A stretch of DNA of 33,117 nt from an uncultured Bdellovibrionales bacterium (lineage in GTDB: Bacteria > Patescibacteriota > Minisyncoccia > Moranbacterales > UBA1568). The DNA lies in NCBI GenBank assembly GCA_964450795.1, contig CAYVDI010000004.1:4207-37323 (forward strand). The letters are read 5' to 3'. Position numbers and translations under genes: made by a program. The notes under the pieces were generated by a model. It made no database searches and was not told where the DNA came from. It saw nothing but the letters and a program-made list of their open reading frames with translations. This document shows, piece by piece, positions 6,803 through 32,880 of this stretch (position 1 is the stretch's first letter; each line of letters begins with the position of its first letter).

Positions 6803-8302
6803 ATGAATCCATCGGATACCAGGGAAATAACCCCCTACAAACGGGAGATGCGGACCGAAAGGATGAAGGTCCCGGTCGTCTTCCATGTGCAGGAGTCGCT
6901 CATGCCGAACGAGGCGACCCTGAGACAGCTCGAGAGCGTCGCCGGCAATCATTGCGTCTCACATCATATCGCCGCGATGGCGGACGTGCACAGCAAACTC
7001 GGCCGCAAGAACGCGACCGGTACGACGGTCGTTTCCGAATCCGCCATCCTGCCACAGCTCAACGACTCAGATCCCGCCTGCGGCATGCGCCTCGTCCGGA
7101 CGAATCTCACCGAAGACAACACGACACCGGAAGAGCTGGAAAAACTTTTCCAAGCACTCGTCCCCCGAGTCCCGACGAAAGCCTATGTCGGAACCTATCT
7201 CCCCTTCCGCGTCATCGTCGACATCGCGCGCAAGGGCATCGCGCCGCTCATCGAATATCTGGGTATCACGACGAAATACGAGGCAGAAAATTCCCTCGAC
7301 CGCGGCAACTTCTTCGCCGAGGAAAAATCATCGCGGTATATCAAGGACATCATCCCGTCGCTCTTCCTCTTCTTCGCGCAGTTCCGCTCGGGTATTCTCG
7401 GAGCCGCCGGCAACCACTTCCTCGACCTCATGAAGGTGACCGACATCGAGGATCCCGTCCTCGCGGAGAAGCTCGGCGTGAAGAAGGGTCAGTATCTTTT
7501 CATGATCCACTGCGGATCCGGGATCCTCGGGCAGTACACCATGTACATGTACACCGCGAAGAAACGCGAGCACAAATCGACCGCGATCCTCATGAACATC
7601 GGCCGGTTCTTCTGGCGCACGCCCTTCCGCAAGACCGTCGACGCGATCGCCAAGAAGATCCGCGAGTCCGACTTCGGAAAGAAGGAGCCGCTCATCGAAT
7701 TCACCGGCGAAGAGGCGGACCTCTACATGGCCGCGCGCAACGCCTGCTCCAACTTCGCCCACGCGAACCGCGCCGTCATCGCGCATAACGTCTCGGAAAC
7801 GATCAAGGAAGTCCTCGGGCGCGATCCGGAAATGGAGCTCCTCTACGACATGCCGCACATCCTCGTCTCCCGCGAGGAACATTTCGGAAAATCGCTGTGG
7901 GTGCACCGCAACGGGACATCCCGCGCCTACGGTCCGTCGCGCATGTCCGACCACCCGGTGTTCAAGGAAACCGGCGAACCGGCATTCATCCCGACCTCCA
8001 TGTCGACGGAAGCCTATCTTTGTGTCGGTCAGGATGGCAACGACTCCACATTCTACTCTTGCAACCACGGCGCCGGAAAATCGAAGGAGAAGACGGATTC
8101 CGTCGTCCCCGAAAACAAATCCGAACTCGACGCGAAACTCGCCACCAAGGGCGTCACCCTCTACAACGGTCGTTCCTCCAAAGTCATCGAACAGGACTCC
8201 TCGCACTACAAGCAGGCGGCGGACGTCATCGCGAGCGCCAAGGAAAACGGCGTCGTCAAACCCGTCGCCAAAATGCAACCCGTCTCGGTCATAATGTATT
8301 AG
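6803..8302 (+). CDS. rtcB: RtcB-family RNA 3'-phosphate/5'-OH ligase (divergent member)
   Basis: RtcB motifs appear in the canonical order. They are MADVHSKLG (PDxH-like), SDPACGMRL (D..C metal site), AAGNHFLDL (GNHF), HCGSGILG (HSGSRGLG-like), NFAHANRAV, DMPHILVSRE, IPTSMSTEAYL (IPGSMG-like) and SCNHGAGKS (the HGAG guanylyl-His motif). Confidence 0.85.
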   Translation: MNPSDTREITPYKREMRTERMKVPVVFHVQESLMPNEATLRQLESVAGNHCVSHHIAAMADVHSKLGRKNATGTTVVSESAILPQLNDSDPACGMRLVRTNLTEDNTTPEELEKLFQALVPRVPTKAYVGTYLPFRVIVDIARKGIAPLIEYLGITTKYEAENSLDRGNFFAEEKSSRYIKDIIPSLFLFFAQFRSGILGAAGNHFLDLMKVTDIEDPVLAEKLGVKKGQYLFMIHCGSGILGQYTMYMYTAKKREHKSTAILMNIGRFFWRTPFRKTVDAIAKKIRESDFGKKEPLIEFTGEEADLYMAARNACSNFAHANRAVIAHNVSETIKEVLGRDPEMELLYDMPHILVSREEHFGKSLWVHRNGTSRAYGPSRMSDHPVFKETGEPAFIPTSMSTEAYLCVGQDGNDSTFYSCNHGAGKSKEKTDSVVPENKSELDAKLATKGVTLYNGRSSKVIEQDSSHYKQAADVIASAKENGVVKPVAKMQPVSVIMY

Positions 8303-8344
8303 GTATTTGGTATTTGGTATTTGGTATCCCGTATCATGTATAAA
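8296..8344 (+). repeat. Tandem heptad array A: seven GTATnnn units (three perfect GTATTTG) overlapping the rtcB stop codon
   Basis: The array reads GTATTAG GTATTTG GTATTTG GTATTTG GTATCCC GTATCAT GTATAAA. The TAG of the first unit is the rtcB stop. CCCGTAT (8328-8334) can pair with ATACGGG (8349-8355). Confidence 0.9.
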
Positions 8345-8377
8345 ACGCATACGGGGAGAAAACCGAGACAAGAAAAG

Positions 8378-8415
8378 ACCGCTTCGTCATGTTGACCGAA
8401 GCGGTTTTCGTTTGT
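8378..8415. terminator. Bidirectional intrinsic terminator (rtcB on +, RHH gene on -)
   Basis: ACCGCTTCG..TCA pairs with TGA.CCGAAGCGGT, a stem of about 12 bp with one bulge. TTTTCGTTTG follows on the + strand. An A-rich run (agaaaag) precedes it, which gives a T-run on the minus strand. Confidence 0.7.
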
Positions 8416-8450
8416 GTGGAGACTTCCGGTCTTATTCAAGACCAAGAAAG

Positions 8451-8732
8451 TTACACATCATTGTTTCGACGTACCTGGACAAGTTGCAGGAAAATCCTGA
8501 TAGACATCGGCCTTCCGAGCGCTTTGATAACAGGAATCATTCCTTCAACATCCTCGACTGTCAACAAGGTATCGTGATTTGACTCGGAAGTACCCTGCCC
8601 CTGCGAAGCAAGGTATTGCTCAACAGCCTGATTGATGAGGTTTGAAACCGTTGATCCATCCCTCTCCGCCAACTTCTTCAATGCCAATTGAGATTCCTTG
8701 GACAATCTAACCGTTACAGGAGCCTTTGTCAC
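8451..8732 (-). CDS. Ribbon-helix-helix (CopG/Arc/MetJ-like) DNA-binding protein with an unassigned C-terminal half
   Basis: A GTG start at 8732 is preceded by a strong SD (GGAGGTGAT, 7-nt spacing). The N-terminus APVTVRLSKESQLALKKLAERDGSTVSNLINQAVEQYL fits the RHH beta-strand plus two helices. The gene is visibly AT-richer than its neighbours. Confidence 0.7.
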   Translation of the reverse strand: MTKAPVTVRLSKESQLALKKLAERDGSTVSNLINQAVEQYLASQGQGTSESNHDTLLTVEDVEGMIPVIKALGRPMSIRIFLQLVQVRRNNDV

Positions 8733-8782
8733 GGTATCACCTCCATATGAAAATGTTAAAAAAGCAATTTTACTGACCTAGG

Positions 8783-8811
8783 AAAATAGCACGATTCATC
8801 GATTTTGTCAA
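8783..8811 (-). promoter_or_regulatory. Sigma70-type promoter of the RHH gene (TTGACA-17 nt-TATTTT on the minus strand)
   Basis: The + strand reads tgtcaa at 8806-8811 and aaaata at 8783-8788, with a 17-nt spacer. The -35 overlaps the stop codon of the O-antigen-ligase-family gene. Confidence 0.55.
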
Positions 8812-10124
8812 TACTTTCGCGCCACGAATCCGGCGAGCAGGAAGAAAAATAATAGCCCGAAATGCGATGACCAGAACCAGTGGTCGAGGAGGAGGCTCGG
8901 AAGAAGAATGAGAAGGATTGCGGATTTTTGGCTGAAGATTCTTGATCGAAAGACAGAAACCAGGAAGCCGACAAACAGGATCAAACCGATCACTCCAAGC
9001 TCGGCGAAAACGAGCGCAAAAACGTTATGCGCCGGCTGAACGCTCCAGACGGGACGAGTCGGCTCGTTTTCCATGACCACCTTCGTGAAGTTTCCCGCAC
9101 CGACCCCGATGATCGGATGCGCCGCGATGAGCGTCTTCGCATCGGCAAGCGACACGATCCGTTCCGATACCGATCCTTCCCGCGTGATCGTCGCCCCGTC
9201 GAACCGCGGAAATATCTGGTCGCGGAGAACAAAAACGAACATGAATAAGGCAAGAGCAAGTACCCCGAGTATCCGCGCACGCTGTTTTCCCCATACGTGA
9301 TACCTGATACAAGACACACAATACGCGACGATTCCCATCGCCGCTCCCAGCCATGCCGCGCGGGAGAACGTGAGGATGAGACCCAAGAGAAGAATGGCGA
9401 ATGAGGAATAGCAAATGATGAATGAAAACCACGATTCCCGATTCCGTATACGTGATATGTGATACGAAATACCCAATACGAAAACTGCCGCCAAGAATCC
9501 CCCGAGCATGTTCGGATGTGGAAAGGATCCATATGCGCGGAGAAAGCGCTCCGTCTCGAGTTTGAGCACCGACGTTCCTGCCCACCACGATTCATGGGTG
9601 CTCATACCGAGGAGTGCGGACGCCGGACTCGACTGATAGAGAAACTGCCCTACCGCAAGCATGCTTTGCAGCACCGCCGCCGCGAGCAGGACTTTCACCG
9701 CGGTTTTCATGTCCACATCATCCAATGACCGGACAAGAAAAAACACGCCAGCCCCGAGAAGAAGCTTCACGAAGAAGTACCCTGCAAGCACGGCATCCTG
9801 CACCCAGAAAATAGAAAGACCGGACCAGAGAACAAGAAGGATAAGGGCTGTATCTTGTATTTTGTATTTCGTATTATGTATTTCCCCATACGTGATACCT
9901 GATACGAGATACTTGATACCAAACACGCGATGTTTCTTCAACCAACCAAAAACAACAAACACCAATGCACCAACCACGAACACGTCGGTTAAATACACCC
10001 CGATCGTTCCGTACTGCCACTTCTCCCCGTTCACAAACGGTTCGCGCAGCAAAAGCACCGTCTGGGACGGAAGAAGGAAGAGAAAGGAAAAAAATAGGTT
10101 TCTTGAAAGTTTCTTGAAGTCCAT
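8808..10124 (-). CDS. O-antigen ligase family protein (Wzy_C domain), carrying three repeat-derived insertions
   Basis: It is a polytopic protein. Wzy_C-type motifs are LRAYGSFPHPNMLGGFLA and TFSRAAWLGAAMG. Three loop segments (CIRYHVWGK, GISYHISRIRN, GIKYLVSGITYGEIHNTKYKIQDT) are encoded by GTAT/ATAC heptad arrays. Confidence 0.85.
   Translation of the reverse strand: MDFKKLSRNLFFSFLFLLPSQTVLLLREPFVNGEKWQYGTIGVYLTDVFVVGALVFVVFGWLKKHRVFGIKYLVSGITYGEIHNTKYKIQDTALILLVLWSGLSIFWVQDAVLAGYFFVKLLLGAGVFFLVRSLDDVDMKTAVKVLLAAAVLQSMLAVGQFLYQSSPASALLGMSTHESWWAGTSVLKLETERFLRAYGSFPHPNMLGGFLAAVFVLGISYHISRIRNRESWFSFIICYSSFAILLLGLILTFSRAAWLGAAMGIVAYCVSCIRYHVWGKQRARILGVLALALFMFVFVLRDQIFPRFDGATITREGSVSERIVSLADAKTLIAAHPIIGVGAGNFTKVVMENEPTRPVWSVQPAHNVFALVFAELGVIGLILFVGFLVSVFRSRIFSQKSAILLILLPSLLLDHWFWSSHFGLLFFFLLAGFVARKY
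9290..9324 (+). repeat. Heptad array B (five nnnATAC units) inside the Wzy_C CDS
   Basis: The array reads CCCATAC GTGATAC CTGATAC AAGACAC ACAATAC. Positions 9286-9310 are identical to 9881-9905. Confidence 0.9.
9445..9479 (+). repeat. Heptad array C (five nnnATAC units) inside the Wzy_C CDS
   Basis: The array reads CGTATAC GTGATAT GTGATAC GAAATAC CCAATAC. Confidence 0.85.
9850..9926 (+). repeat. Heptad array D: five GTATnnn units followed in phase by six nnnATAC units (imperfect 77-nt palindrome) inside the Wzy_C CDS
   Basis: The array reads GTATCTT GTATTTT GTATTTC GTATTAT GTATTTC CCCATAC GTGATAC CTGATAC GAGATAC TTGATAC CAAACAC. Confidence 0.9.
10098..10119 (+). repeat. Tandem 11-mer (GTTTCTTGAAA GTTTCTTGAAG) at codons 3-10 of the Wzy_C gene
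   Basis: Two adjacent 11-nt copies match at 10 of 11 positions. On the coding strand they read TTCAAGAAACT TTCAAGAAACC directly after ATG GAC. Confidence 0.8.
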
Positions 10125-19286: not shown

Positions 19287-22112
19287 ATGCCTCGTTTCAG
19301 TCGCTCCAAGATCGGAATATCCGTCGGAAGTTGGAAATCGGAAATCGGAAATTTTTTTTCAAGAGTACCGTTGAAGAGATGCGGTTCCCTCGCTTCGCTC
19401 ACCGTCATTCTCACGATCCATTTCTTCTTCGGCCTCCAGCATATCGGCAGTTTCATCACCGCCGATGAGCATTACTGGGTCGATGAGCGGATCCCGCAAT
19501 ATTGGGAGGCCTGGTCCGAAGGAAAGTGGCGGAAAACGCTCATCAACGACAAACCGGGAATAAGCCTCGCGCTCATCTCCGGTCCAGCACTCCTCCTGAA
19601 CGAAAAAACGGCGCTTCGCTGCGAAGAAAAAGACGGGTGGTTTTCGGGATGCGATCCGGAAAAAACCTCCGCGCTCTACGCCTCGTTCCGGATTCCCATA
19701 CTTCTTCTCAATGGCGTTTTTCTTGTTCTCATCTTCCTCTCGATACGGGTGATTTCCGGACCGATTGTCGCCGCCGCATCCGCGGGACTTATGGCGCTTT
19801 CCCCGAACCTGCTCGGGATATCACAGATCATCAATCCGGACGCGATCCTCTGGTCATCCGGATCGACCGCCATATTCGCATTTCTTGCGTTCCTCAAAAG
19901 CGGGAGGAAACCGTACGCGTTCCTTTCGGTCGCCGCGCTCACGTTCGCATTGCTTTCGAAATACACGGCGATCATCATCATCTTCTTTCTCCCGTTCGTC
20001 GCGCTCTCGATACGGTTCCTTGATCCCGGATTCTCCCCGATTCCGCTCAAGAAAAAACTCGCGTCCCTCGTCGGAATATCGACGATACCGTTCCTTCTCT
20101 TTCCTATGTTTGTCCCCGGCGTCCTTTCTTCCGAAGAAAGAATCACCGCCTTTCTCACCGCCGGAACCGGGTCGTTTCTTCCGTGGATCGGCTACGCGGC
20201 GCTTCTCGGCGTACTGACAGCAGTCGCAGTCCTCCGTATCCCGAAAAAGACCGAAGTCCTCCTCAGGAATACGACCCGATACTCGCTTCGCATACCGGCG
20301 GTGGCATTCGTCGGACTCGCTGTCTGGCTTGTCATCGGAAGAATGACGATTCCGAACTGGAATATCTTCACCGCCATCCCGTTCGATATCAAGGATCTCA
20401 CCAATGCCCGGTACTATCTCCCGGATCCGCTTTCCCCTCTCGATATCGCCTTTCTCGAGATATCCCCCTTCATCTACGGCCTTCCGCTCGTGACCGCGCT
20501 CTTCGCGCTCTTTGCGGTCGTTCTCGCTGCCGTATCCAAAAAACGTGACGAGTTGCCGATAACCCTGATTCTTACTTTCTTCGTCATCCTGCTCATCGCC
20601 GCGCTCGGATTCTCGAATGTTTTCGCGATTCCCCGATACGTCATTCTCGCATTCCCCATAGCATCCTATATCGCCGCCCTCGGCATGAAGGAGGCCTGGG
20701 AACTTCTCCCGAAACGATCCCGGTCGGGAAAATTTCCGATTATTCTCGCCGGAATCGTCGCTCTCGTCTCGCTCGGGAGTCTCCTCTCAAGCAAGCCGTA
20801 CTACGCGAACTTCGCGAATATGCTCCTCCCGAAAACATCGCTTATCTCGCACTCCTGGGGATACGGCGGATACGAGGCCGCCATGTACCTCAACGCGCTC
20901 CCGGACGCAAGAAACACCACCATCTGGAGCGACTACTACGGCGTCTGTGAGTTCTTCGTCGGCCGATGTCTCACCGCCTACACCTTCGACCCGAAAATCG
21001 CCCCGGACTACTACGTTCTCACCCGCCGCGGACAGCTCCGCTACATGCCGAAATACGAAAAATGGGAGGAAAAGTCAGGACTTGTCGCATACCAATACTA
21101 CGACCGTACGGATCCGCTCTGGAGTCTCAGCATAAACGGGAAAAATGAGAATTTCGTGAAGGTCTTCCGCGTCGATAACGAGCTCCGCGCGAGCGTCATC
21201 ACCGACATAGACCATTGCGTTTCCCGCGCACCGGTCCCGGAATCCCTTTTCGGGAACTTCACCTCATTTTCCGATGAAACCGGGTCGGATTTCATCATCA
21301 GCCTCGGGGACAACATCAGTCACCGGCTCCAAGGATGCTCGAAAACCGCCGCGACCGATCTCCCGTATGTCATGAATCGTCTCGATCGGGCCAGAGCCGA
21401 AGATCACTATGTTCTCGGGGACCACGATCTCGGAAGCAGCAAAGAGTCATACCAACTGTGGCTTTCCCTCACCGGACGGGAATCCACATACTATTCGTTC
21501 GATACGAAGGGGGCGCACATCGTCGTGCTCGACACCATCACGGGAGGAGAACCGATCGTTCAGACCTGCGAAGAAAGCTCCGAATGTGACAAGAGTCACA
21601 AGGAAAAGGCGAAGCTTGATGCCATTCTCCGGGATCCGAAACTCCTTTCCGCCTACCTCGCAGAGACGGGGAAAAGCCGGGCCGAAACGCTCACGGACCG
21701 CGCGAACATCACGAAACACTACCGAGACGAGCTTGCCGTCATACACATGGTGCGCGATGCGAGCGACCGCGACCGCGGGATGGTGCTCGACCGCGAACTC
21801 GATTGGCTCGAAGCCGACCTCGCAAGAACATCCGCTGATCGCGTAATCGTCTTCTCCGACCACCCGCTCATCCCCTTCTCATCACCGAAAAAGAGCTACG
21901 ATATCCTGAACGGTGCCACGGTCCGTGAAATTCTTGAAAAGAGCGGCAAGGAAGTCGTCGCCATTTCCGGCGAGGCGCATCTCTGGCATGAGGAGGAGCG
22001 AAACGGGATACGCTATTTCATCGTCAACCAGTTCCGGGCATCTCCCGGTGGAACATGGGCGTCCGTCTCCTGGGACAAGACCGGATTCCGGTTCGAACGC
22101 GTAGAACGATAA
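19287..22112 (+). CDS. Fusion protein: GT-C (GT39-like) membrane glycosyltransferase plus a C-terminal metallophosphoesterase-like domain
   Basis: The N-terminal 620 aa or so are paralogous to the preceding gene (ITADEHYWVDERIPQYW..INDKPGISLALISG, IINPDAILW, YEAAMYLNALPDARNTTIWSD..VCEFFVGRC). The C-terminal 300 aa or so carry Metallophos-like motifs in order: DIDH (21204-21215), GDNI (21306-), GDHD (21417-21428), SDHP (21855-) and GEAHLWH (21969-21989). The start may instead be TTG 19371, downstream of a heptad array. Confidence 0.85.
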   Translation: MPRFSRSKIGISVGSWKSEIGNFFSRVPLKRCGSLASLTVILTIHFFFGLQHIGSFITADEHYWVDERIPQYWEAWSEGKWRKTLINDKPGISLALISGPALLLNEKTALRCEEKDGWFSGCDPEKTSALYASFRIPILLLNGVFLVLIFLSIRVISGPIVAAASAGLMALSPNLLGISQIINPDAILWSSGSTAIFAFLAFLKSGRKPYAFLSVAALTFALLSKYTAIIIIFFLPFVALSIRFLDPGFSPIPLKKKLASLVGISTIPFLLFPMFVPGVLSSEERITAFLTAGTGSFLPWIGYAALLGVLTAVAVLRIPKKTEVLLRNTTRYSLRIPAVAFVGLAVWLVIGRMTIPNWNIFTAIPFDIKDLTNARYYLPDPLSPLDIAFLEISPFIYGLPLVTALFALFAVVLAAVSKKRDELPITLILTFFVILLIAALGFSNVFAIPRYVILAFPIASYIAALGMKEAWELLPKRSRSGKFPIILAGIVALVSLGSLLSSKPYYANFANMLLPKTSLISHSWGYGGYEAAMYLNALPDARNTTIWSDYYGVCEFFVGRCLTAYTFDPKIAPDYYVLTRRGQLRYMPKYEKWEEKSGLVAYQYYDRTDPLWSLSINGKNENFVKVFRVDNELRASVITDIDHCVSRAPVPESLFGNFTSFSDETGSDFIISLGDNISHRLQGCSKTAATDLPYVMNRLDRARAEDHYVLGDHDLGSSKESYQLWLSLTGRESTYYSFDTKGAHIVVLDTITGGEPIVQTCEESSECDKSHKEKAKLDAILRDPKLLSAYLAETGKSRAETLTDRANITKHYRDELAVIHMVRDASDRDRGMVLDRELDWLEADLARTSADRVIVFSDHPLIPFSSPKKSYDILNGATVREILEKSGKEVVAISGEAHLWHEEERNGIRYFIVNQFRASPGGTWASVSWDKTGFRFERVER
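19326..19353 (+). repeat. Tandem heptad array: GGAAGTT GGAAATC GGAAATC GGAAATT followed by T8
   Basis: Four in-phase 7-nt units lie at 19326-19353 and run into TTTTTTTT (to 19359). The array sits inside the annotated 5' end of the GT-C/phosphoesterase gene, or 11 nt upstream of the alternative TTG start at 19371. Confidence 0.9.
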
Positions 22113-22127
22113 AAACCGTCACCTATC

Positions 22128-23066
22128 CTATTTCTTCCCACCTTTTTGCCGAAGATAGTGCGGAAGCGCACCGAACGAAATGAGCATCTGGAGGAAACGC
22201 GCGAGAATGGCGACCGTCACCGCCGTATCGCCCGATATTCCCGCAATCGGGAAGAATGTGAAGTATGCCCATTCCTTGATGCCGATGTTGTTTATCGAGA
22301 GCGGAACGCTCGAGATGATCGTCGCGAGGAATATGACCGAGAAGAACGCGAGCGGATTTATGGTGCATCCGCCGAGACTCACGAAGAGCGTCAGATTCGT
22401 CAGTCCGACTCCGACGAAGGCGAAAAGCACGGCGTAGAGACTCGATTTGGTCCAGATCCGCGTTTCCATGTAGTGCGACACCTCATCGAAGAGACGCCGG
22501 AGCGGAAACGGAAGCCACTCGATATACCTCCGGAGCCACGGCTTGTGATACGCCCATGTAAGGATGCCGTCCACAAGGAGAAAGAGCACGAGCAGGGAAA
22601 ATGCCACCCGAAGCGGAACTTCCCACGCCGGATGTTCGAAGAAGAAGAGCGAGAGGAACACGAGCGCAAGGATCGCGGTCACCCACAATCCGATGAAGCG
22701 ATCGAATACGACCGTGGAGATCGACGCCGCCTTCGCCTCCGTCTTCCGGGCGAGCCACAGCCCGCGATAGGCATCACCCCCGATCGTCGAAGGAAAGAAG
22801 TTGTTTATGAACGCACCCGAGAGGTATGCGAAAAAGCCCTCCTTCACGTCGAAACGGAGGCCCTTGAACGCCGCGATGATCTGCCACTTCTTCGCCGAGA
22901 TGAGCACGCCGAGCAGCTGCAGGACGACGTACAGGAAGAGAAGCGGCCATGAGATCGTCCGGAGCTCCCCTCCCACCCGGACCCAATCCACCTTCCGCGC
23001 CAAAAGACCGATCAGAAGGGCCGCCACCGTAAGCTTTATGAGGAAAAAAAGTCTTCTCTTCGACAT
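22128..23066 (-). CDS. Lysylphosphatidylglycerol-synthase-TM-region-like (flippase-like, UPF0104/YbhN family) membrane protein
   Basis: The N-terminus is typical of the family: KRRLFFLIKLTVAALLIGLLARKVDW...LFLYVVLQLLGVLISAKKWQ...FFAYLSGAFINNFFPSTIGGDAYRGLW. It has about 8 TM helices. It is the last gene of the minus-strand operon. Confidence 0.8.
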   Translation of the reverse strand: MSKRRLFFLIKLTVAALLIGLLARKVDWVRVGGELRTISWPLLFLYVVLQLLGVLISAKKWQIIAAFKGLRFDVKEGFFAYLSGAFINNFFPSTIGGDAYRGLWLARKTEAKAASISTVVFDRFIGLWVTAILALVFLSLFFFEHPAWEVPLRVAFSLLVLFLLVDGILTWAYHKPWLRRYIEWLPFPLRRLFDEVSHYMETRIWTKSSLYAVLFAFVGVGLTNLTLFVSLGGCTINPLAFFSVIFLATIISSVPLSINNIGIKEWAYFTFFPIAGISGDTAVTVAILARFLQMLISFGALPHYLRQKGGKK

Positions 23067-23075
23067 GAACGTTTC

Positions 23076-24245
23076 CTAATGGTCGGAATCGGAAGGGGTG
23101 ATTTCCAAAAATTTCGCGGCAACCCGCTTCCAACTCATCTCCTCCGCCTTTCGGCGGCTCGCCCCGCTCATCCGCTTCCGGAGATCCTCATCCGCGATCA
23201 GCGTGCCGAGTTTCTCCGCGAGATCCTCCGGAGACCGCTGCTTTACGAAAAGACCGTTCTCCCCGTCACGGACAAGCTCTTCCGTTCCTCCGGTCACCGT
23301 CGCGACGATCGGAAGTCCCGCGGCGAGCGCTTCAAGCACGGTATTGCTCATCCCCTCGTTAAGCGACGGGAGGCAGAACACGTCCGCAAGACCGTAGTAT
23401 TTCGGAAGCTCCTCGTGCGGCACCGCCCCGAAAAATTTCACCTCCTCGGAGACGCCGCATTCTTTCGCGAGCATCTGAAGCGAGGATTTCTCCTCTCCGT
23501 CACCCGCGACCCACAGCTCGACTTTCTCCCGGGTCTTCTCCTTGAGGATCGCCATCGCCCGAACAAGGAACCCGATACCCTTTCGCGGCGTAAGTCGGGA
23601 TACGACCAGGATGCGGAAAAATCCGTCGTGCTCACGTTCCGGATCGGGAGCGAATTCCTCGGTATCCACGCCGTTCGGAATGATCGCGAATGCCTGTTTC
23701 GGCGATGTCTTCGCCGCAAGTTCCGCAAGACCACGACTGTTCGGCACGACCGCGAGGGCCTTTCGCCATACGAGCCTGACGAGCGGTGCAAGGAACAGGT
23801 AGAGTTGATCGTACTTCTCGCTGTATCCGGGAACATCGGACCCCCGCAATGAAACGACGTACGGCATATCGAACTGCCACCGGAACCAAAGCGCGAGTGC
23901 CCCGCACGGGATGCCGAAAAACGCGATCGTCCGATCGAACGGCTTCTCTTTCCGCCACGAATCGCGGATAAGCCCGGAGGAAAAGCGCCATGCGCGAAAG
24001 CTGTACACGAGCAGGTCACGTACCGATTGCGAGTGGATTTTCTCCGGATCCTTGCCGATCGGCAACCGATGCACCCACACCGATCCGCCGACGTGTTCCT
24101 TCTCATATTCTTTCCCCATCCCGCTCGTCACGAGATGAACCTCGACATCCGGCATACGGGAAAACTCGCGCAGGATGTACCGCGTCGCGTTCGCCGCCCC
24201 GCCCCCGAGCGGAGGATACTCGTAATTGAGGAAAAGTATCTTCAT
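23076..24245 (-). CDS. Glycosyltransferase family 4 (GT-B, Glycos_transf_1)
   Basis: The N-terminus is MKILFLNYEYPPLGGGAANATRY. The C-terminal domain reads PSLNEGMSNTVLEALAAGLPIVATVTGGTEELV (EX7E-type). A 3-nt gap separates it from ugd. Confidence 0.9.
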   Translation of the reverse strand: MKILFLNYEYPPLGGGAANATRYILREFSRMPDVEVHLVTSGMGKEYEKEHVGGSVWVHRLPIGKDPEKIHSQSVRDLLVYSFRAWRFSSGLIRDSWRKEKPFDRTIAFFGIPCGALALWFRWQFDMPYVVSLRGSDVPGYSEKYDQLYLFLAPLVRLVWRKALAVVPNSRGLAELAAKTSPKQAFAIIPNGVDTEEFAPDPEREHDGFFRILVVSRLTPRKGIGFLVRAMAILKEKTREKVELWVAGDGEEKSSLQMLAKECGVSEEVKFFGAVPHEELPKYYGLADVFCLPSLNEGMSNTVLEALAAGLPIVATVTGGTEELVRDGENGLFVKQRSPEDLAEKLGTLIADEDLRKRMSGASRRKAEEMSWKRVAAKFLEITPSDSDH

Positions 24246-24248
24246 GCG

Positions 24249-25559
24249 CTACACTCCGATACCGAAATACGTGAACCCGGCTGCTTCCGCCTCCTCCCGC
24301 TCGAGGATATTGCGACCGTCGACGATGACATTCCCCTTCATACGCTTGCTAAGTTCCTTGTAGTCCGCCGTGCGGAACTCGTCCCACTCGGTGACGATGA
24401 CGAGCGCGTCCGCCTTGTCGAGCGCGTCATACTGTTTCGCGACGTATCTCACTTTCGGATTCCTGCCGATGAATCCCTTGGCATTCTCGGTCGCCACCGG
24501 ATCGAACGCCGACACGGTCGCCCCCACCCTCGTGAGCGCCGCGATGATCGAAAGTGCCGGCGCCTCACGGGCATCATCGGTCCGTGGTTTGAACGAAAGC
24601 CCCCAAAGCGCGATCCGCTTCCCCTTGAGCGTCTTGAGTGATTTCTTGAGATGTACGACCGGCAGAAGCTTCTGCTTCTCATTGGCAGCCTCCACCGCTT
24701 CAAGGATGGTGAAGTCCATGCCGTGTTCCTTCCCGGTGTGGATAAGTGCCTTCACATCCTTCGGAAAGCACGAACCGCCATACCCGATTCCGGCATAAAG
24801 GAACCGCGAGCCGATCCGGCTATCGAAACCCATCCCGCGAGACACCTCCTTCACGTTGCCACCGGCCTTATCGATGAACCGAGCGATCTCGTTTATGAAG
24901 GATATCTTGGTTGCGAGGAACGCGTTGCTCGCGTACTTGATGATCTCCGCGCTCTTCACATCGGTCAGCACCACCGGACGCCCGGATCGGGCGATGGGAC
25001 GATAGATCTTCTCCATGATCTCCCATGCACGCTCACTGTCCGCACCGACGACGACCCGATCCGGATTGAGGAAATCCTTGACCGCCGCACCCTCGCGGAG
25101 AAATTCCGGATTCGAGACGACATCGAACTCGAACTTGCCGTCGCTCGCCCGCGCGATCGCCTCACGGACCCGTTCGGCCGTCCCGACCGGGACCGTGGAC
25201 TTGTTCACGAAGATCTTGTATCCGTTCAGGTTCTTCCCGAAGGTTTCCGCCACCGCGAACACGTACTTTAGGTCCGCCTCGCCGGTCTTGGGATCCGGAG
25301 GCGTTCCGACCGCAGAAAAAATCACGTCCGCCTCACGGATCGCGCGTCCGACATCAGTCGTAAACGAGAGGCGCTCCTGCCGCACGTTCTCCTTGACCAG
25401 TTCCTCAAGCCCGAACTCATAGATCGGGATTCCGCCCCGCTTGAGCTTGTCGATCTTCTTCTTGTCGATATCCGCGCAGATCACCTCATGCCCGATTTCC
25501 GCCATACACGTCCCAGATACCAGCCCTACGTACCCCGTCCCGATAAATGCGAGTTTCAT
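24249..25559 (-). CDS. ugd: UDP-glucose 6-dehydrogenase
   Basis: The Rossmann N-terminus is MKLAFIGTGYVGLVSG. The catalytic Cys motif is GYGGSCFPKDV. At 436 aa it has the full three-domain UDPG_MGDP_dh layout. Confidence 0.95.
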   Translation of the reverse strand: MKLAFIGTGYVGLVSGTCMAEIGHEVICADIDKKKIDKLKRGGIPIYEFGLEELVKENVRQERLSFTTDVGRAIREADVIFSAVGTPPDPKTGEADLKYVFAVAETFGKNLNGYKIFVNKSTVPVGTAERVREAIARASDGKFEFDVVSNPEFLREGAAVKDFLNPDRVVVGADSERAWEIMEKIYRPIARSGRPVVLTDVKSAEIIKYASNAFLATKISFINEIARFIDKAGGNVKEVSRGMGFDSRIGSRFLYAGIGYGGSCFPKDVKALIHTGKEHGMDFTILEAVEAANEKQKLLPVVHLKKSLKTLKGKRIALWGLSFKPRTDDAREAPALSIIAALTRVGATVSAFDPVATENAKGFIGRNPKVRYVAKQYDALDKADALVIVTEWDEFRTADYKELSKRMKGNVIVDGRNILEREEAEAAGFTYFGIGV

Positions 25560-25591
25560 AACAGTTAACAGTCAGCAATTAACAATAAACA
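25557..25591 (-). repeat. Heptad array E (minus strand: TGTTTAT TGTTAAT TGCTGAC TGTTAAC TGTTATG) ending in the ugd start codon
   Basis: The + strand reads CATAACA GTTAACA GTCAGCA ATTAACA ATAAACA. The ATG of the last unit is the ugd initiation codon. Its orientation is inverted relative to array F. Confidence 0.9.
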
Positions 25592-25606
25592 AAGTCTTTC
25601 ATTCCC

Positions 25607-25972
25607 CTATTGGTTATCTTTTGCAATCTTCTCCTTAATTCCCTGAATTCTCTTCCAAAGCATCGCCCCTATCTCATCTGTCAACGCCATAAGAGTTTCA
25701 TACTCTTTCTTTGTCATATACTTTTCTCGGGTACAGAAGAATATAAGGTATTTCGTCTCTTTCAGCGATCCATACGATATTTGAAGAAAGTTTTTCAGCT
25801 CCTTGTTCCCCGTTCTTGCGAAACCCTCGACATAATTGAGAATCACAGATAACGCCGCTCTTCGCAATTGCGAAGTAATCCCATAAATCTCATCCCTCGG
25901 AAATTTCTTTGTCACATCATAGACACCCTTCGCAAATCCATCCATTTTTTCTTTCAGGATATCTTTTTCCAT
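25607..25972 (-). CDS. Four-helix-bundle protein (23S rRNA intervening-sequence protein family; same fold family as DGR Avd)
   Basis: The family signature is SQLRRAALSVILNYVEGFARTGNKELKNFLQISYGSLKETKYL. It is 121 aa and visibly AT-rich compared with the flanking genes. Confidence 0.9.
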   Translation of the reverse strand: MEKDILKEKMDGFAKGVYDVTKKFPRDEIYGITSQLRRAALSVILNYVEGFARTGNKELKNFLQISYGSLKETKYLIFFCTREKYMTKKEYETLMALTDEIGAMLWKRIQGIKEKIAKDNQ

Positions 25973-25999
25973 ATCTGTTTTTGTTTCTTCTCCGTTTCC

Positions 26000-26034
26000 C
26001 GTTGACTGTTAACTGTTATTTGTTATCTGTTTTA
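26000..26034 (+). repeat. Heptad array F (CGTTGAC TGTTAAC TGTTATT TGTTATC TGTTTTA, then TGG), overlapping the 3' end of the GT2 gene on the opposite strand
   Basis: Five in-phase units lie on the + strand, and an ATG spans 26034-26036. The antisense of the array encodes the last residues (..IKQITNNS) and the stop of CDS 26009..26953. Confidence 0.9.
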
Positions 26035-26953
26035 TGGAATAGTTCATCCTGTTTCTCTGGCTGTAGTACGTCTTCACCGCGATATCCACGAGGATACCGA
26101 AGATGAAGAGCTGAACCCCGACCAAGACAAGCAGCGTGCCGACCAAGGGCCAGATACGCTCGGCGAGCGAAGCGCCGAGAAACACCTTCTCGACGAACAT
26201 CCATCCGAGTATCCCGATACCGACGACACCAAGGAGAAGCCCCGTCCCGCCGAAAAGGTGTATCGCTCGGTGCGAGTACTTGCGCCAGAACCAGATGAAA
26301 AGCATATCGACGAATCCTTTGATCGCGCGCTTCCAGTTGTATTTCGTCACGCCGTGGATCCGCGGGTGATGCGAGACTTTCACCTCCGACACGCGGAAAC
26401 CGTCGAGCTGGAGCAAGGCCGGCATGAACCGGTGCATCTCCCCGAAGAGGTCGACTCCATCGAAACATTCGCGACGATACGCCTTGAGACTGCATCCCGA
26501 ATCGTGGATCCCGTCCTTCACGAGTCCCTTACGGAGCAGGTTCGCCCCGCGGGAGAAGAATTTCTTCATGAGGGAATCCTTCCGCTTGAAGCGCCACCCG
26601 GAGACGATATCGTATCCCTTGTCCATCTCCTCAAGTAGGAGCGGGATGTCCGCCGGATCGTTCTGAAGGTCGCCGTCCATCGTGATGACGATATCCCCCG
26701 TCGCCTTCTTGATCCCCGCGTCGAACGCCGCCGTCTGTCCGAAGTTCTTGCGGAACTCGACGAGCGTCAAAGGTGACAGTTCGCGACACAGTTCGACCGT
26801 CTTATCCTTCGAACCGTCATCGACGAAGATGATCTCGAACGGTCGTCCGATCTTTTCGAACGCCTCCCGGATCCGCTTGTGCAACTCAACTACATTCCCC
26901 TCCTCGTTGTATATCGGCACCACCGCCGACAGATACGGTTTCCCGTTTTCCAT
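26009..26953 (-). CDS. GT2 polyprenyl-phosphate glycosyltransferase (Dpm1/ArnC/GtrB-like)
   Basis: Motifs are LSAVVPIYNEEGN, EIIFVDDGSKDKT and TMDGDLQNDP. Two C-terminal TM helices match ArnC/GtrB-type enzymes. Confidence 0.9.
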   Translation of the reverse strand: MENGKPYLSAVVPIYNEEGNVVELHKRIREAFEKIGRPFEIIFVDDGSKDKTVELCRELSPLTLVEFRKNFGQTAAFDAGIKKATGDIVITMDGDLQNDPADIPLLLEEMDKGYDIVSGWRFKRKDSLMKKFFSRGANLLRKGLVKDGIHDSGCSLKAYRRECFDGVDLFGEMHRFMPALLQLDGFRVSEVKVSHHPRIHGVTKYNWKRAIKGFVDMLFIWFWRKYSHRAIHLFGGTGLLLGVVGIGILGWMFVEKVFLGASLAERIWPLVGTLLVLVGVQLFIFGILVDIAVKTYYSQRNRMNYSIKQITNNS

Positions 26954-32845: not shown

Positions 32846-32880
32846 TGTTTATCGTTAACTGTTAACTGTTCACTGAATAT
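32846..32880 (+). repeat. Heptad array G (TGTTTAT CGTTAAC TGTTAAC TGTTCAC TGAATAT) ending at the DUF2304 start codon
   Basis: Five in-phase units lie at 32846-32880, and ATG 32879-32881 begins inside the last unit. It belongs to the same family, and has the same five-unit length, as arrays E and F. Confidence 0.9.

What the first reader, a model, noticed from the sequence alone, without database searches (positions are those of the whole stretch)
9286..9926. Heptad-periodic palindromic element inserted three times inside the O-antigen-ligase-family gene, with one identical 25-mer translated in two different frames
Positions 9850-9926 (+) read as five GTATnnn units followed in phase by six nnnATAC units, an imperfect 77-nt palindrome. 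Half-elements of five nnnATAC units lie at 9290-9324 and 9445-9479. The 25-mer TTTCCCCATACGTGATACCTGATAC is identical at 9286-9310 and 9881-9905. In CDS 8808..10124(-), the first copy is read as CIRYHVWGK and the second as VSGITYGE, which are different reading frames. The conservation is therefore at the nucleotide level, not the protein level. All three segments fall between hydrophobic helices, probably in loops, and the ORF stays open. This looks like a small repeat element that inserts into coding DNA and is tolerated when translated, much like Rickettsia palindromic elements. Its strict 7-nt internal periodicity is something I have not seen described.
Basis: seen in the sequence. Interest (0 to 1): 0.75.

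Follow-up and report, generated by a model that had tools for sequence, protein, structure and literature searches.

The report
Heptad foldback arrays, relatives of IVS-cassette arms

Summary
Only lag 7 shows self-identity in the window. A 39-nt element occurs three times in the Wzy_C gene, and one copy is joined to an inverted arm to give the 77-nt palindrome. The shared 25-mer is read in two frames. An independent assembly of a 97.8%-identical strain carries two of the three copies unchanged.

The element is not confined to this gene. Similar arrays lie at the RtcB stop codon, at two other sites in the window, and as inverted arms around a PF05635 (23S_rRNA_IVP, four-helix-bundle) gene at 25607-25972.

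In 80 genomes from many phyla, PF05635 genes are flanked by inverted arrays of period 7 or 8 and of no other period. Arrays mostly have 4-5 units. 61 of 66 inverted array pairs spaced 300-520 nt apart enclose a PF05635 gene. A Falkowbacteria cassette has (GTATnnn)5...(nnnATAC)5 arms, the same as the Wzy palindrome.

In 84 Wzy orthologues such arrays cluster at four loops and use many different core motifs.

Best reading: these are ORF-less relatives of IVS-type cassette arms, translated where loops tolerate them. RNase III processing and binding by the pentameric protein are inferred, not shown. I rate this a new variant of a known kind.

The parts
9850..9884 (.). Left arm of the 77-nt foldback palindrome in Wzy loop 1: five exact GTATnnn units
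   Evidence: On the + strand the RNA hairpin folds at -30.1 kcal/mol (z -7.4); on the mRNA strand it folds at -20.0 (z -3.2).
9881..9926 (.). Right arm: five exact nnnATAC units plus a degenerate CAAACAC. 9881-9919 is copy 3 of the 39-nt element.
9429..9484 (.). Wzy loop-2 array: CGATTCC x2 followed by five nnnATAC-type units. 9441-9479 is copy 2 of the 39-nt element (77%).
   Evidence: identical in L001
9286..9324 (.). Wzy loop-3 array: copy 1 of the 39-nt element, carrying the exact 25-mer
   Evidence: identical in L001. Five-unit GTAT arrays occupy the same loop in L083, L084, L085 and L101.
8808..10124 (-). Host gene: Wzy_C (O-antigen-ligase family) membrane protein, 438 aa, ORF intact through all three arrays
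   Evidence: Pfam PF04932, E 4e-21; 359 homologues, mostly Candidatus Moranbacteria/Moraniibacteriota
8296..8341 (.). Seven GTATnnn units beginning in the last codons and stop codon of RtcB (6803..8302 +). A solitary arm.
   Evidence: The position is conserved in L084 (ATAC core) and L082 (CTGTTGA core).
25607..25972 (-). PF05635 / bAvd-like four-helix-bundle protein gene (23S rRNA intervening-sequence protein family), 121 aa
   Evidence: Pfam E 1.3e-29; PDB relatives 2GSC and 2RLD, each deposited with 5 chains
25999..26033 (.). Arm of the PF05635 cassette that lies upstream in the sense of the gene: nnnTGTT units on the + strand. It overlaps the last codons and stop codon of the GT2 gene (26009..26953 -).
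25556..25595 (.). Downstream arm of the PF05635 cassette: AACAnnn units on the + strand. It abuts the ugd start codon at 25559.
   Evidence: A 17-bp perfect stem with the other arm closes the folded cassette RNA.
32846..32875 (.). Solitary intergenic array (CGTT/TGTT core, GTTAACT units) resembling the arm of the PF05635 cassette
19317..19352 (.). Solitary nnnGGAA heptad array at the start of the PMT_2-family ORF 19287..22112
23066..23109 (-). Empty site. The junction between the GT4 gene and the downstream gene (annotated LPG_synthase_TM in L165) carries a second PF05635 cassette in related genomes L165/L166 and a solitary array in L002.

Best explanation
The three segments are copies of one short-period array element of about five 7-nt units, each with a conserved 4-nt core (GTAT/ATAC) and about 3 variable bases. 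In loop 1 two arms face each other as a foldback palindrome. In loops 2 and 3 only one arm is present.

[quoted passage not shown] The classical rRNA IVS is one example of such a cassette. The ORF-less arrays are far more numerous than the gene. Where they sit in tolerant inter-helix loops and their core has no stop codon, they are simply translated.

Proposed mechanism. Shown here: the cassettes sit in sense orientation inside operons, and their arms are complementary over 25-45 nt. Inferred: the arms pair in the transcript to form a stem of the kind that RNase III cuts in the Coxiella IVS. Hypothesis: the homopentameric PF05635 protein recognises the roughly five-unit arrays, one unit per subunit, much as the TRAP ring binds spaced GAG triplets.
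For: Same architecture in this window:
- A PF05635 gene at 25607-25972 is flanked by inverted (AACAnnn)/(nnnTGTT) arrays. Its folded RNA closes with a 17-bp terminal stem.

Generality across 80 genomes:
- Arrays within 200 bp of PF05635 genes occur at 2.06/kb for lag 7 and 1.6/kb for lag 8, and at 0 for lags 5, 6, 9 and 10. Elsewhere the densities are 0.18 and 0.095/kb.
- 66 of 76 genes have a lag-7 or lag-8 array above threshold on at least one side.
- The best ungapped pairing between the two arms totals 1603 Watson-Crick pairs against 283 mismatches.
- 61 of 66 inverted array pairs spaced 300-520 nt enclose a PF05635 gene. A further 39 pairs are ORF-less hairpins.

Direct match to the finding:
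- L028 carries (GTATnnn)5-PF05635-(nnnATAC)5.

Link between solitary arrays and cassettes:
- Solitary arrays resemble the arms of the local cassette in 26.7% of cases, against 1.8% for cassettes of other genomes (p 2e-14).
- Paralogous cassettes in one genome have different arms.
- The period (7 or 8) follows the protein's nearest neighbour in 49 of 61 cases (p 9e-7).

Unit number:
- It peaks at 4-5 for both periods and drops sharply at 6. All 11 GTAT arrays examined in Wzy loops have exactly five units.
- PDB relatives 2GSC and 2RLD are each deposited with 5 chains. A homopentamer is reported in PMC4990558, citing Lin 2006.

Orientation:
- The neighbouring genes are co-oriented with the cassette in 43 cases and opposed on both sides in 1.

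Gain and loss:
- At the junction after the GT4 gene, related genomes show an empty site, a solitary array or a full cassette.

Literature:
- In the Coxiella IVS the arms form a 28-bp stem cut by RNase III in vitro, and 2-3 GACAGAT heptamers lie in the 5' arm (PMC4990558).
Against: - No PF05635 gene with GTAT arms is seen in this 33-kb window. The link to the Wzy arrays is by architecture and by a cassette in another class (L028).
- Mismatches between the arms show no wobble bias: G-U 63 against A-C 77. There is therefore no signature of selection on the sense RNA stem specifically.
- The Wzy palindrome folds better on the strand antisense to the gene.
- Exact PF05635 proteins are always found in one genomic context across samples. 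No recent transposition is seen, and no target-site duplication was found.
- PF05635 has no known catalytic motif. Binding to the arrays is untested.
- The loop-2 and loop-3 arrays add no length to the loops. This fits overwriting or ancient insertion better than simple insertion.
- The detection threshold (about 35 nt) hides arrays shorter than 4 units, so the lower side of the 4-5 unit peak is partly an artefact of the method.
Confidence: 0.55

Rival explanations
1. The arrays are an independent non-autonomous mobile element (RPE-like or MITE-like foldback) moved by some unidentified enzyme. PF05635 genes are passengers that lodge in the hairpin loops and have no functional tie to the arrays.
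For: - ORF-less arrays vastly outnumber PF05635 genes: 204 arrays against 2 genes in about 430 kb of Wzy loci.
- ORF-less hairpins exist (39 pairs).
- One site can hold heptad palindromes with different cores in near-identical strains.
- Two inverted pairs enclose other small genes, rpmH and a YtxH-like gene.
Against: - 61 of 66 cassette-sized inverted pairs hold PF05635 and almost nothing else.
- The period follows the protein's phylogeny, and paralogues have their own arms.
- No transposase and no target-site duplications were seen.
Confidence: 0.18
2. The arrays arise and are maintained in place by replication slippage and by template switching within quasi-palindromes. They may act as contingency (phase-variation) repeats in a surface-polysaccharide gene, with no mobile element involved.
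For: - Identical adjacent units occur (GTATTTG x3 at 8303-8323).
- The downstream arm has more units in L002 than in the window.
- There is an apparent 21-nt (3-unit) in-frame difference between P0015 and P0032.
- Copy number of the Coxiella heptamers varies among strains (PMC4990558).
- Wzy is a typical target of phase variation (own knowledge).
Against: - Units differ in their spacers, which hampers slippage.
- The loop-2 and loop-3 arrays are identical in the two strains and keep five units across orthologues of 51-57% identity.
- There is a sharp cut-off above 5 units rather than a long tail.
- The tight association with one gene family is not explained.
Confidence: 0.12
3. The arrays are binding sites for a host nucleic-acid-binding protein (for example a cold-shock or S1-type protein, as proposed for TAACTGA repeats) and act in post-transcriptional control, independently of PF05635.
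For: - PMC4679880 proposes this for TAACTGA repeats upstream of start codons.
- 11 of 83 cassette arms have a consensus within one mismatch of TAACTGA, against 1.7% expected.
- The arrays abut start and stop codons.
- GTAT cores are conserved in all three reading frames across diverged orthologues, which implies selection at the nucleotide level.
Against: - Cores are extremely diverse between genomes, and even between cassettes of one genome. This does not fit a single conserved host factor.
- It does not explain the inverted symmetry or the enclosed gene.
Confidence: 0.1
4. The segments are a conserved protein motif of these Wzy proteins (an amphipathic [IV]xYxVxx repeat), or they are an assembly artefact.
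For: Orthologues share peptides such as RIRYHVWGK and YYVSxIxY.
Against: - The same nucleotides occur in non-coding DNA and at the end of the RtcB gene.
- The 25-mer is read in two frames.
- L082 carries the opposite orientation in loop 2 and another core in loop 3.
- Independent assemblies agree.
Confidence: 0.03

Closest known systems
23S rRNA intervening sequences (IVS) that carry an S23p/PF05635 ORF (Leptospira, Coxiella, Xanthomonas group; Ralph & McClelland 1993 as cited in PMC4990558; Warrier et al. 2016, PMC4990558)
   Same: - A small PF05635 gene is bounded by terminal inverted repeats that form a long stem.
- Heptameric tandem units (GACAGAT x2-3) lie in the 5' arm of the Coxiella IVS.
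- The element is transcribed as part of a host transcript.
- ORF-less hairpin versions are known at the same rRNA sites (own knowledge).
   Different: - Here the elements lie between, at the ends of, and inside protein-coding genes, not in rRNA.
- The Wzy copies have no ORF and are translated.
- The 7/8-nt periodic, roughly five-unit build of the arms has not, to my knowledge, been stated as a general rule.
- RNase III cutting is untested here.
Heptamer direct repeats: TAACTGA repeats of Beggiatoaceae, Cyanobacteria and Bacteroidetes (MacGregor 2015, PMC4679880) and cyanobacterial STRR heptamers (own knowledge)
   Same: - 7-nt tandem units, usually 2-6 copies.
- Mostly intergenic and close to start codons, occasionally inside ORFs and translated.
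- Horizontal spread is suspected, with no known mechanism.
- The cassette arms in this window are TAACTGT units, one mismatch from TAACTGA.
   Different: - Those were described as direct repeats of one fixed heptamer, with no inverted partner and no associated gene.
- Here the units have a conserved core and a variable spacer, come as inverted pairs, and flank PF05635.
Rickettsia palindromic elements (RPE; own knowledge)
   Same: Short palindromic DNA that sits in frame within coding sequences and is tolerated when translated, often in surface-exposed or loop regions.
   Different: - RPEs are 100-150-bp families specific to Rickettsia, without short-period internal structure.
- No sequence relationship is evident.
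- No associated gene cassette is known.
REP/REPIN elements and their RAYT transposase (own knowledge)
   Same: A single gene is flanked by inverted copies of a short palindromic repeat, and many ORF-less copies of that repeat are scattered in the same genome. Repeats and gene are matched to each other.
   Different: - PF05635 is a roughly 120-aa helical bundle with no HUH/Y1 motifs.
- The arrays are periodic rather than a single palindrome.
- No evidence of recent movement was found.
TRAP (trp RNA-binding attenuation protein) and its RNA target (own knowledge)
   Same: A ring-shaped homo-oligomer whose RNA target is a run of short conserved cores separated by non-conserved spacers, one core per subunit.
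   Different: This is an analogy only. TRAP is an 11-mer beta-sheet ring that binds (G/U)AG triplets. No binding data exist for PF05635.

Membership tests
IVS-type PF05635 cassette (arms plus gene) | A PF05635/S23p ORF lies between the arms | tested here: not met
   The Wzy palindrome has 0-6 nt between its arms, and the half-arrays have no partner arm. The cassette at 25556-26033 in the same window does meet this feature.
IVS-type PF05635 cassette (arms plus gene) | Terminal inverted repeats able to form a stem of about 20-45 bp | tested here: met
   The 77-nt element folds as a hairpin at -30.1 kcal/mol on the + strand, z -7.4. Cassette arms pair over 17-49 nt.
IVS-type PF05635 cassette (arms plus gene) | Arms built of 7- or 8-nt periodic units, about 4-5 per arm (a rule derived here) | tested here: met
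   Five GTATnnn units plus five to six nnnATAC units. The same core and unit number are seen in the L028 cassette.
IVS-type PF05635 cassette (arms plus gene) | Location in 23S (or 16S) rRNA helix 25/45 and excision by RNase III | tested here: not met
   The location is a protein-coding gene, and Rfam finds no rRNA in the window. RNase III cutting cannot be tested with these tools.
Rickettsia palindromic elements | Membership of an RPE sequence family and a Rickettsia host | tested here: not met
   The host is Candidatus Moranbacteria. The element has a 7-nt periodic build that RPEs lack. No sequence comparison with RPE consensus sequences was run.
Rickettsia palindromic elements | In-frame presence in an intact, conserved ORF | tested here: met
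   The ORF is intact and homologous on both sides of all three segments.
MITE / foldback transposon | Target-site duplications and a related autonomous element that encodes a transposase | tested here: not met
   No direct repeats flank the palindrome or the cassette. No transposase lies in the window ORFs examined. PF05635 has no known catalytic function.
Contingency-locus simple sequence repeat | Identical tandem units whose copy number varies between close strains and shifts the reading frame | tested here: not met
   The units differ in their spacers. The loop-2 and loop-3 arrays are identical in the 97.8%-identical strain L001. Read-level variation is not testable.
TAACTGA-type heptamer repeats (MacGregor 2015) | Tandem direct repeats of the heptamer TAACTGA | tested here: inconclusive
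   The Wzy arrays have a GTAT core and do not match. The window's cassette arms and the array at 32846-32875 are TAACTGT units, one mismatch away. 11 of 83 cassette arms elsewhere are within one mismatch.
REP/REPIN-RAYT | A Y1 (HUH) transposase gene flanked by the repeats | tested here: not met
   The flanked gene is PF05635 in 61 of 66 cases. No RAYT was seen.

The most novel reading that the evidence does not exclude
PF05635 proteins (S23p / 'four helix bundle protein', whose function has stayed unknown since the 1990s) are ring pentamers that read five-unit, 7- or 8-nt-spaced arrays on RNA or single-stranded DNA. Gene plus arms form a widespread selfish or regulatory module that lives inside transcripts, both rRNA and operons. 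The scattered heptamer repeats of Cyanobacteria, Beggiatoaceae, Bacteroidota and candidate-phylum bacteria, including those translated inside genes, are its ORF-less offspring and remain under its control.
Probability: 0.3. Interest if true: 0.85.

Novelty: new variant of a known kind. Interest (0 to 1): 0.72.

Why it matters

The data give a simple, testable rule. PF05635 genes carry inverted arms of about five units with a 7- or 8-nt period, and the period follows the protein's phylogeny. This points to a concrete binding experiment.

It would also show that candidate-phylum bacteria tolerate, and apparently maintain, nucleotide-level elements inside the loops of a membrane glycosyltransferase-type gene. 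That matters for gene annotation, for reading 'conserved' loop peptides, and for recombination at surface-polysaccharide loci.

Tried and rejected
- Rfam, gathering thresholds, whole window: no family matched.
- Wobble test for selection on the sense RNA stem: G-U 63 against A-C 77, so no bias.
- DNA-parameter folds of the palindrome are weak, -9.1 and -7.6 kcal/mol. The half-arrays do not fold on their own, z about 0.
- Search for recent mobility: the exact proteins P0121 and P0238 occur in only one genomic context each across many samples.
- Target-site duplications: none seen at the palindrome, the cassette, or the polymorphic junction after the GT4 gene.
- Concerted evolution among the three loops: only a weak signal. 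Mean scores are 24.7 within a genome, 22.6 for the same loop in another genome, and 20.2 as baseline.
- The L118/L121 indel next to Wzy is a 500-nt insertion with no evident relation to these arrays; it was read by eye only.
- Literature searches found heptamer repeats in the Coxiella IVS and the TAACTGA paper. None stated a general link between PF05635 and periodic arms. The library lacks many subscription-journal papers, so this absence is not proof.
- DNA for the P0005 locus could not be fetched.
Full report
OBSERVATION

The sequence is as described. Positions 9850-9884 hold five exact GTATnnn units. Positions 9885-9926 hold five exact nnnATAC units plus a degenerate sixth.

The 25-mer is identical at 9286-9310 and 9881-9905. 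The repeat finder shows that the repeated unit is really 39 nt, with copies at 9286-9324, 9441-9479 (77%) and 9881-9919 (87%).

The ORF 8808..10124(-) is a Wzy_C protein (PF04932, E 4e-21). It reads the two 25-mers as CIRYHVWGK and VSGITYGE.

The periodicity is far beyond chance and specific to 7 nt. 76 sliding windows reach >=20 of 28 matches at lag 7, and none do at lags 5, 6, 8, 9 or 10; shuffles give 0.07 regions.

An independent assembly of a strain 97.8% identical over 8.5 kb (L001) carries the loop-2, loop-3 and RtcB-end arrays unchanged. This rules out an artefact.

THE ELEMENT IS NOT CONFINED TO THE GENE

The same scan finds heptad arrays at four other places:
- 8296-8341: seven GTATnnn units that supply the last codons and the stop codon of RtcB.
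- 19317-19352: GGAA core.
- 32846-32875: TGTT core.
- 25556-25595 and 25999-26033: a pair in inverted orientation.

This last pair encloses a 121-aa ORF that is a clear PF05635 (23S_rRNA_IVP, bAvd-like) protein (E 1.3e-29). The ORF sits exactly between the GT2 and ugd genes. The cassette RNA folds with a 17-bp terminal stem.

GENERALITY

I built an alignment of PF05635 homologues and fetched 80 loci from species-representative genomes. They span candidate-phylum bacteria, Bacteroidota, Planctomycetota, Omnitrophota, Elusimicrobia, Acidobacteriota and others.

- Periodic arrays within 200 bp of the gene ends occur at 2.06/kb for lag 7 and 1.6/kb for lag 8, and not at all for lags 5, 6, 9 and 10. 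Away from the gene the densities are 0.18 and 0.095/kb.
- Of 76 full-length genes, 32 have period-7 arrays, 29 have period-8, 5 have both, and 10 fall below threshold. Most of those 10 still show short arrays by eye.
- The upstream and downstream arrays are inverted copies. The best ungapped pairings are mostly about 20-45 nt long and total 1603 Watson-Crick pairs against 283 mismatches.
- Conversely, among all inverted array pairs in the DNA held, 66 are spaced 300-520 nt apart. 61 of these enclose a PF05635 gene: 57 by tblastn and 4 more by Pfam. A further 39 pairs are ORF-less hairpins with gaps under 150 nt.
- Unit number peaks at 4-5 for both periods and falls sharply at 6.
- The period follows the protein's nearest neighbour in 49 of 61 cases (p 9e-7).
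- Paralogous cassettes in one genome have different arms.
- Solitary arrays resemble the arms of the local cassette 15 times more often than arms from other genomes.
- The cassette lies in sense with both neighbouring genes in 43 cases and against both in 1.
- Most directly, a Falkowbacteria cassette (L028) is (GTATnnn)5-PF05635-(nnnATAC)5. These are the two arms of the Wzy palindrome with the gene between them.

THE WZY GENE AS A HOST

Orthologue proteins carry peptides that are translations of GTATnnn arrays at the same loops. Orthologue DNA confirms this:
- L083 and L084 have five-unit GTAT arrays in loops 1, 2 and 3.
- L082 has the opposite orientation in loop 2 and an AATC core in loop 3.

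All 11 GTAT arrays compared have exactly five units. 35 nt is not a multiple of three, so the reading frame does not explain this number.

A metagenome scan returned 80 more Wzy loci. Across the 84 Wzy loci analysed there are 105 period-7/8 arrays inside the gene, at 0.98/kb against 0.26/kb in the flanks. They cluster at four positions (query residues about 60-100, 220-240, 260-295 and 390-415) and use very diverse cores. Many are inverted pairs.

Loop 1 length falls into three tiers: 29-32 aa with no array, 36-39 aa with one arm, and 48-53 aa with two arms. Loops 2 and 3 have the same length with or without arrays.

In strain L001 the loop-1 region (window about 9830-10040) is replaced by a different heptad palindrome, (GAATnnn)4...(nnnATTC)4. 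The rest of the 8.5 kb is 97.8% identical.

So the position is conserved while the sequence, core and orientation are not. The loops act as tolerant landing or retention sites. Only cores without stop codons, such as GTAT, ATAC, AATC and GAAT, can persist there, because successive units are read in all three frames (inference from the sequence).

In general these arrays avoid coding DNA. Only 20% lie inside long ORFs, against 67% for random positions. Wzy is an exception.

GAIN AND LOSS

At the junction after the GT4 gene, the window has a 10-nt gap. L002 has a solitary array there. L165 and L166 have a complete second cassette, (CAAnnnn)7-PF05635-(nnnnTTG)8. These genomes are 77-84% identical at the nucleotide level.

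Within species the cassettes are stable. Exact proteins recur in only one genomic context.

MECHANISM

Shown here: the architecture, its generality, the sense orientation of cassettes in operons, the complementarity of the arms, the bounded unit number, and the co-inheritance of period and protein.

Taken from the literature: in the Coxiella 23S IVS the arms form a 28-bp stem that RNase III cuts in vitro. Two to three GACAGAT heptamers lie in the 5' arm, with copy number varying between strains. The Xanthomonas family member is a homopentameric ring (PMC4990558). PDB relatives 2GSC and 2RLD each have five chains.

Inferred: cassette arms pair in operon transcripts and are processed like an IVS. 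The Wzy arrays are ORF-less relatives that are merely translated.

Hypothesis: each subunit of the pentamer reads one unit, by analogy with TRAP.

Against an RNA-only view:
- Arm mismatches show no wobble bias.
- The Wzy palindrome folds better on the antisense strand, -30.1 against -20.0 kcal/mol.

COMPARISON WITH WHAT IS KNOWN

Heptamer repeats are known. TAACTGA repeats, some inside ORFs, are reported with no mechanism (PMC4679880). STRR heptamers are known in cyanobacteria (own knowledge).

The cassette arms in this window are TAACTGT units. 11 of 83 arms elsewhere are within one mismatch of TAACTGA, against 1.7% expected.

IVS elements with an S23p ORF and inverted repeats are also known. 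I did not find a general statement of either of these points:
- PF05635 genes carry inverted arms of about five units with a 7/8-nt period.
- ORF-less versions of those arms populate coding loops in candidate-phylum bacteria.

The paper library is incomplete, so prior description cannot be excluded.

VERDICT

- The element is a new variant of a known kind: an IVS-type or foldback element, with heptamer repeats as its building blocks.
- The step from architecture to biochemical function remains untested.

Noticed in passing
L161 2460-2492, compared with L138 at about 2539: Two strains 99.9% identical differ by a 33-nt in-frame palindromic insertion (CCCCGTACCAGAACGAGTTCGGTACAGGGCAAG). It lies in the middle of the heptad array of Wzy loop 2 and is a different kind of small element, using the array as its landing site.
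   Followed up: partly
P0003 (Wzy orthologue), loop 1: This loop carries the peptide ...VAKQSRGKNGEW...GLPRRGLLAMT. It looks like the translation of another palindromic repeat, not a heptad array, inserted in the same loop.
   Followed up: no
window 8343-8807 and the same slot in L082, L083, L084 and the P0005 contig: The slot between Wzy and RtcB holds a different small gene in each lineage: an RHH/CopG-like protein of 93 aa here, a 91-aa unknown, YdjM, a 127-aa unknown, or nothing. It is bounded by heptad arrays (Wzy loop 3 and the RtcB end). It may be a cassette-exchange hot spot.
   Followed up: partly
window about 1955-1965, compared with L001: L001 has a 10-nt tandem duplication (CGGTTCTGAT x2) at the 3' end of a gene. 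The window has one copy, so the C-terminus differs.
   Followed up: no
window 19287-19352: A GGAA-core heptad array lies within codons 11-22 of the annotated start of the 941-aa PMT_2-family ORF. Either the true start is downstream, or a second membrane glycosyltransferase carries a translated array.
   Followed up: no
L019 8438-8825 and L020 5650-6191: Two cassette-sized inverted array pairs enclose something other than PF05635: ribosomal protein L34 (rpmH) and a YtxH-like protein.
   Followed up: partly
L053 4882-6536, window 24249-25972, L002, L165: A PF05635 cassette lies immediately upstream of ugd (UDP-glucose dehydrogenase) both in this lineage and in a genome whose ugd is only 50% identical. 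This may be a recurrent or very old association.
   Followed up: no
L083 11148-11194 and 11331-11377: A loop-4 array (nnAAATC) and an array just downstream of the Wzy stop codon (nnGATTC) are inverted partners. They enclose the last transmembrane segment and the stop codon, so inverted arrays can bracket parts of genes.
   Followed up: no
window 8368-8415: A 19-nt inverted repeat followed by a T-run lies between RtcB and the RHH gene. It looks like an ordinary bidirectional terminator next to the heptad array.
   Followed up: no
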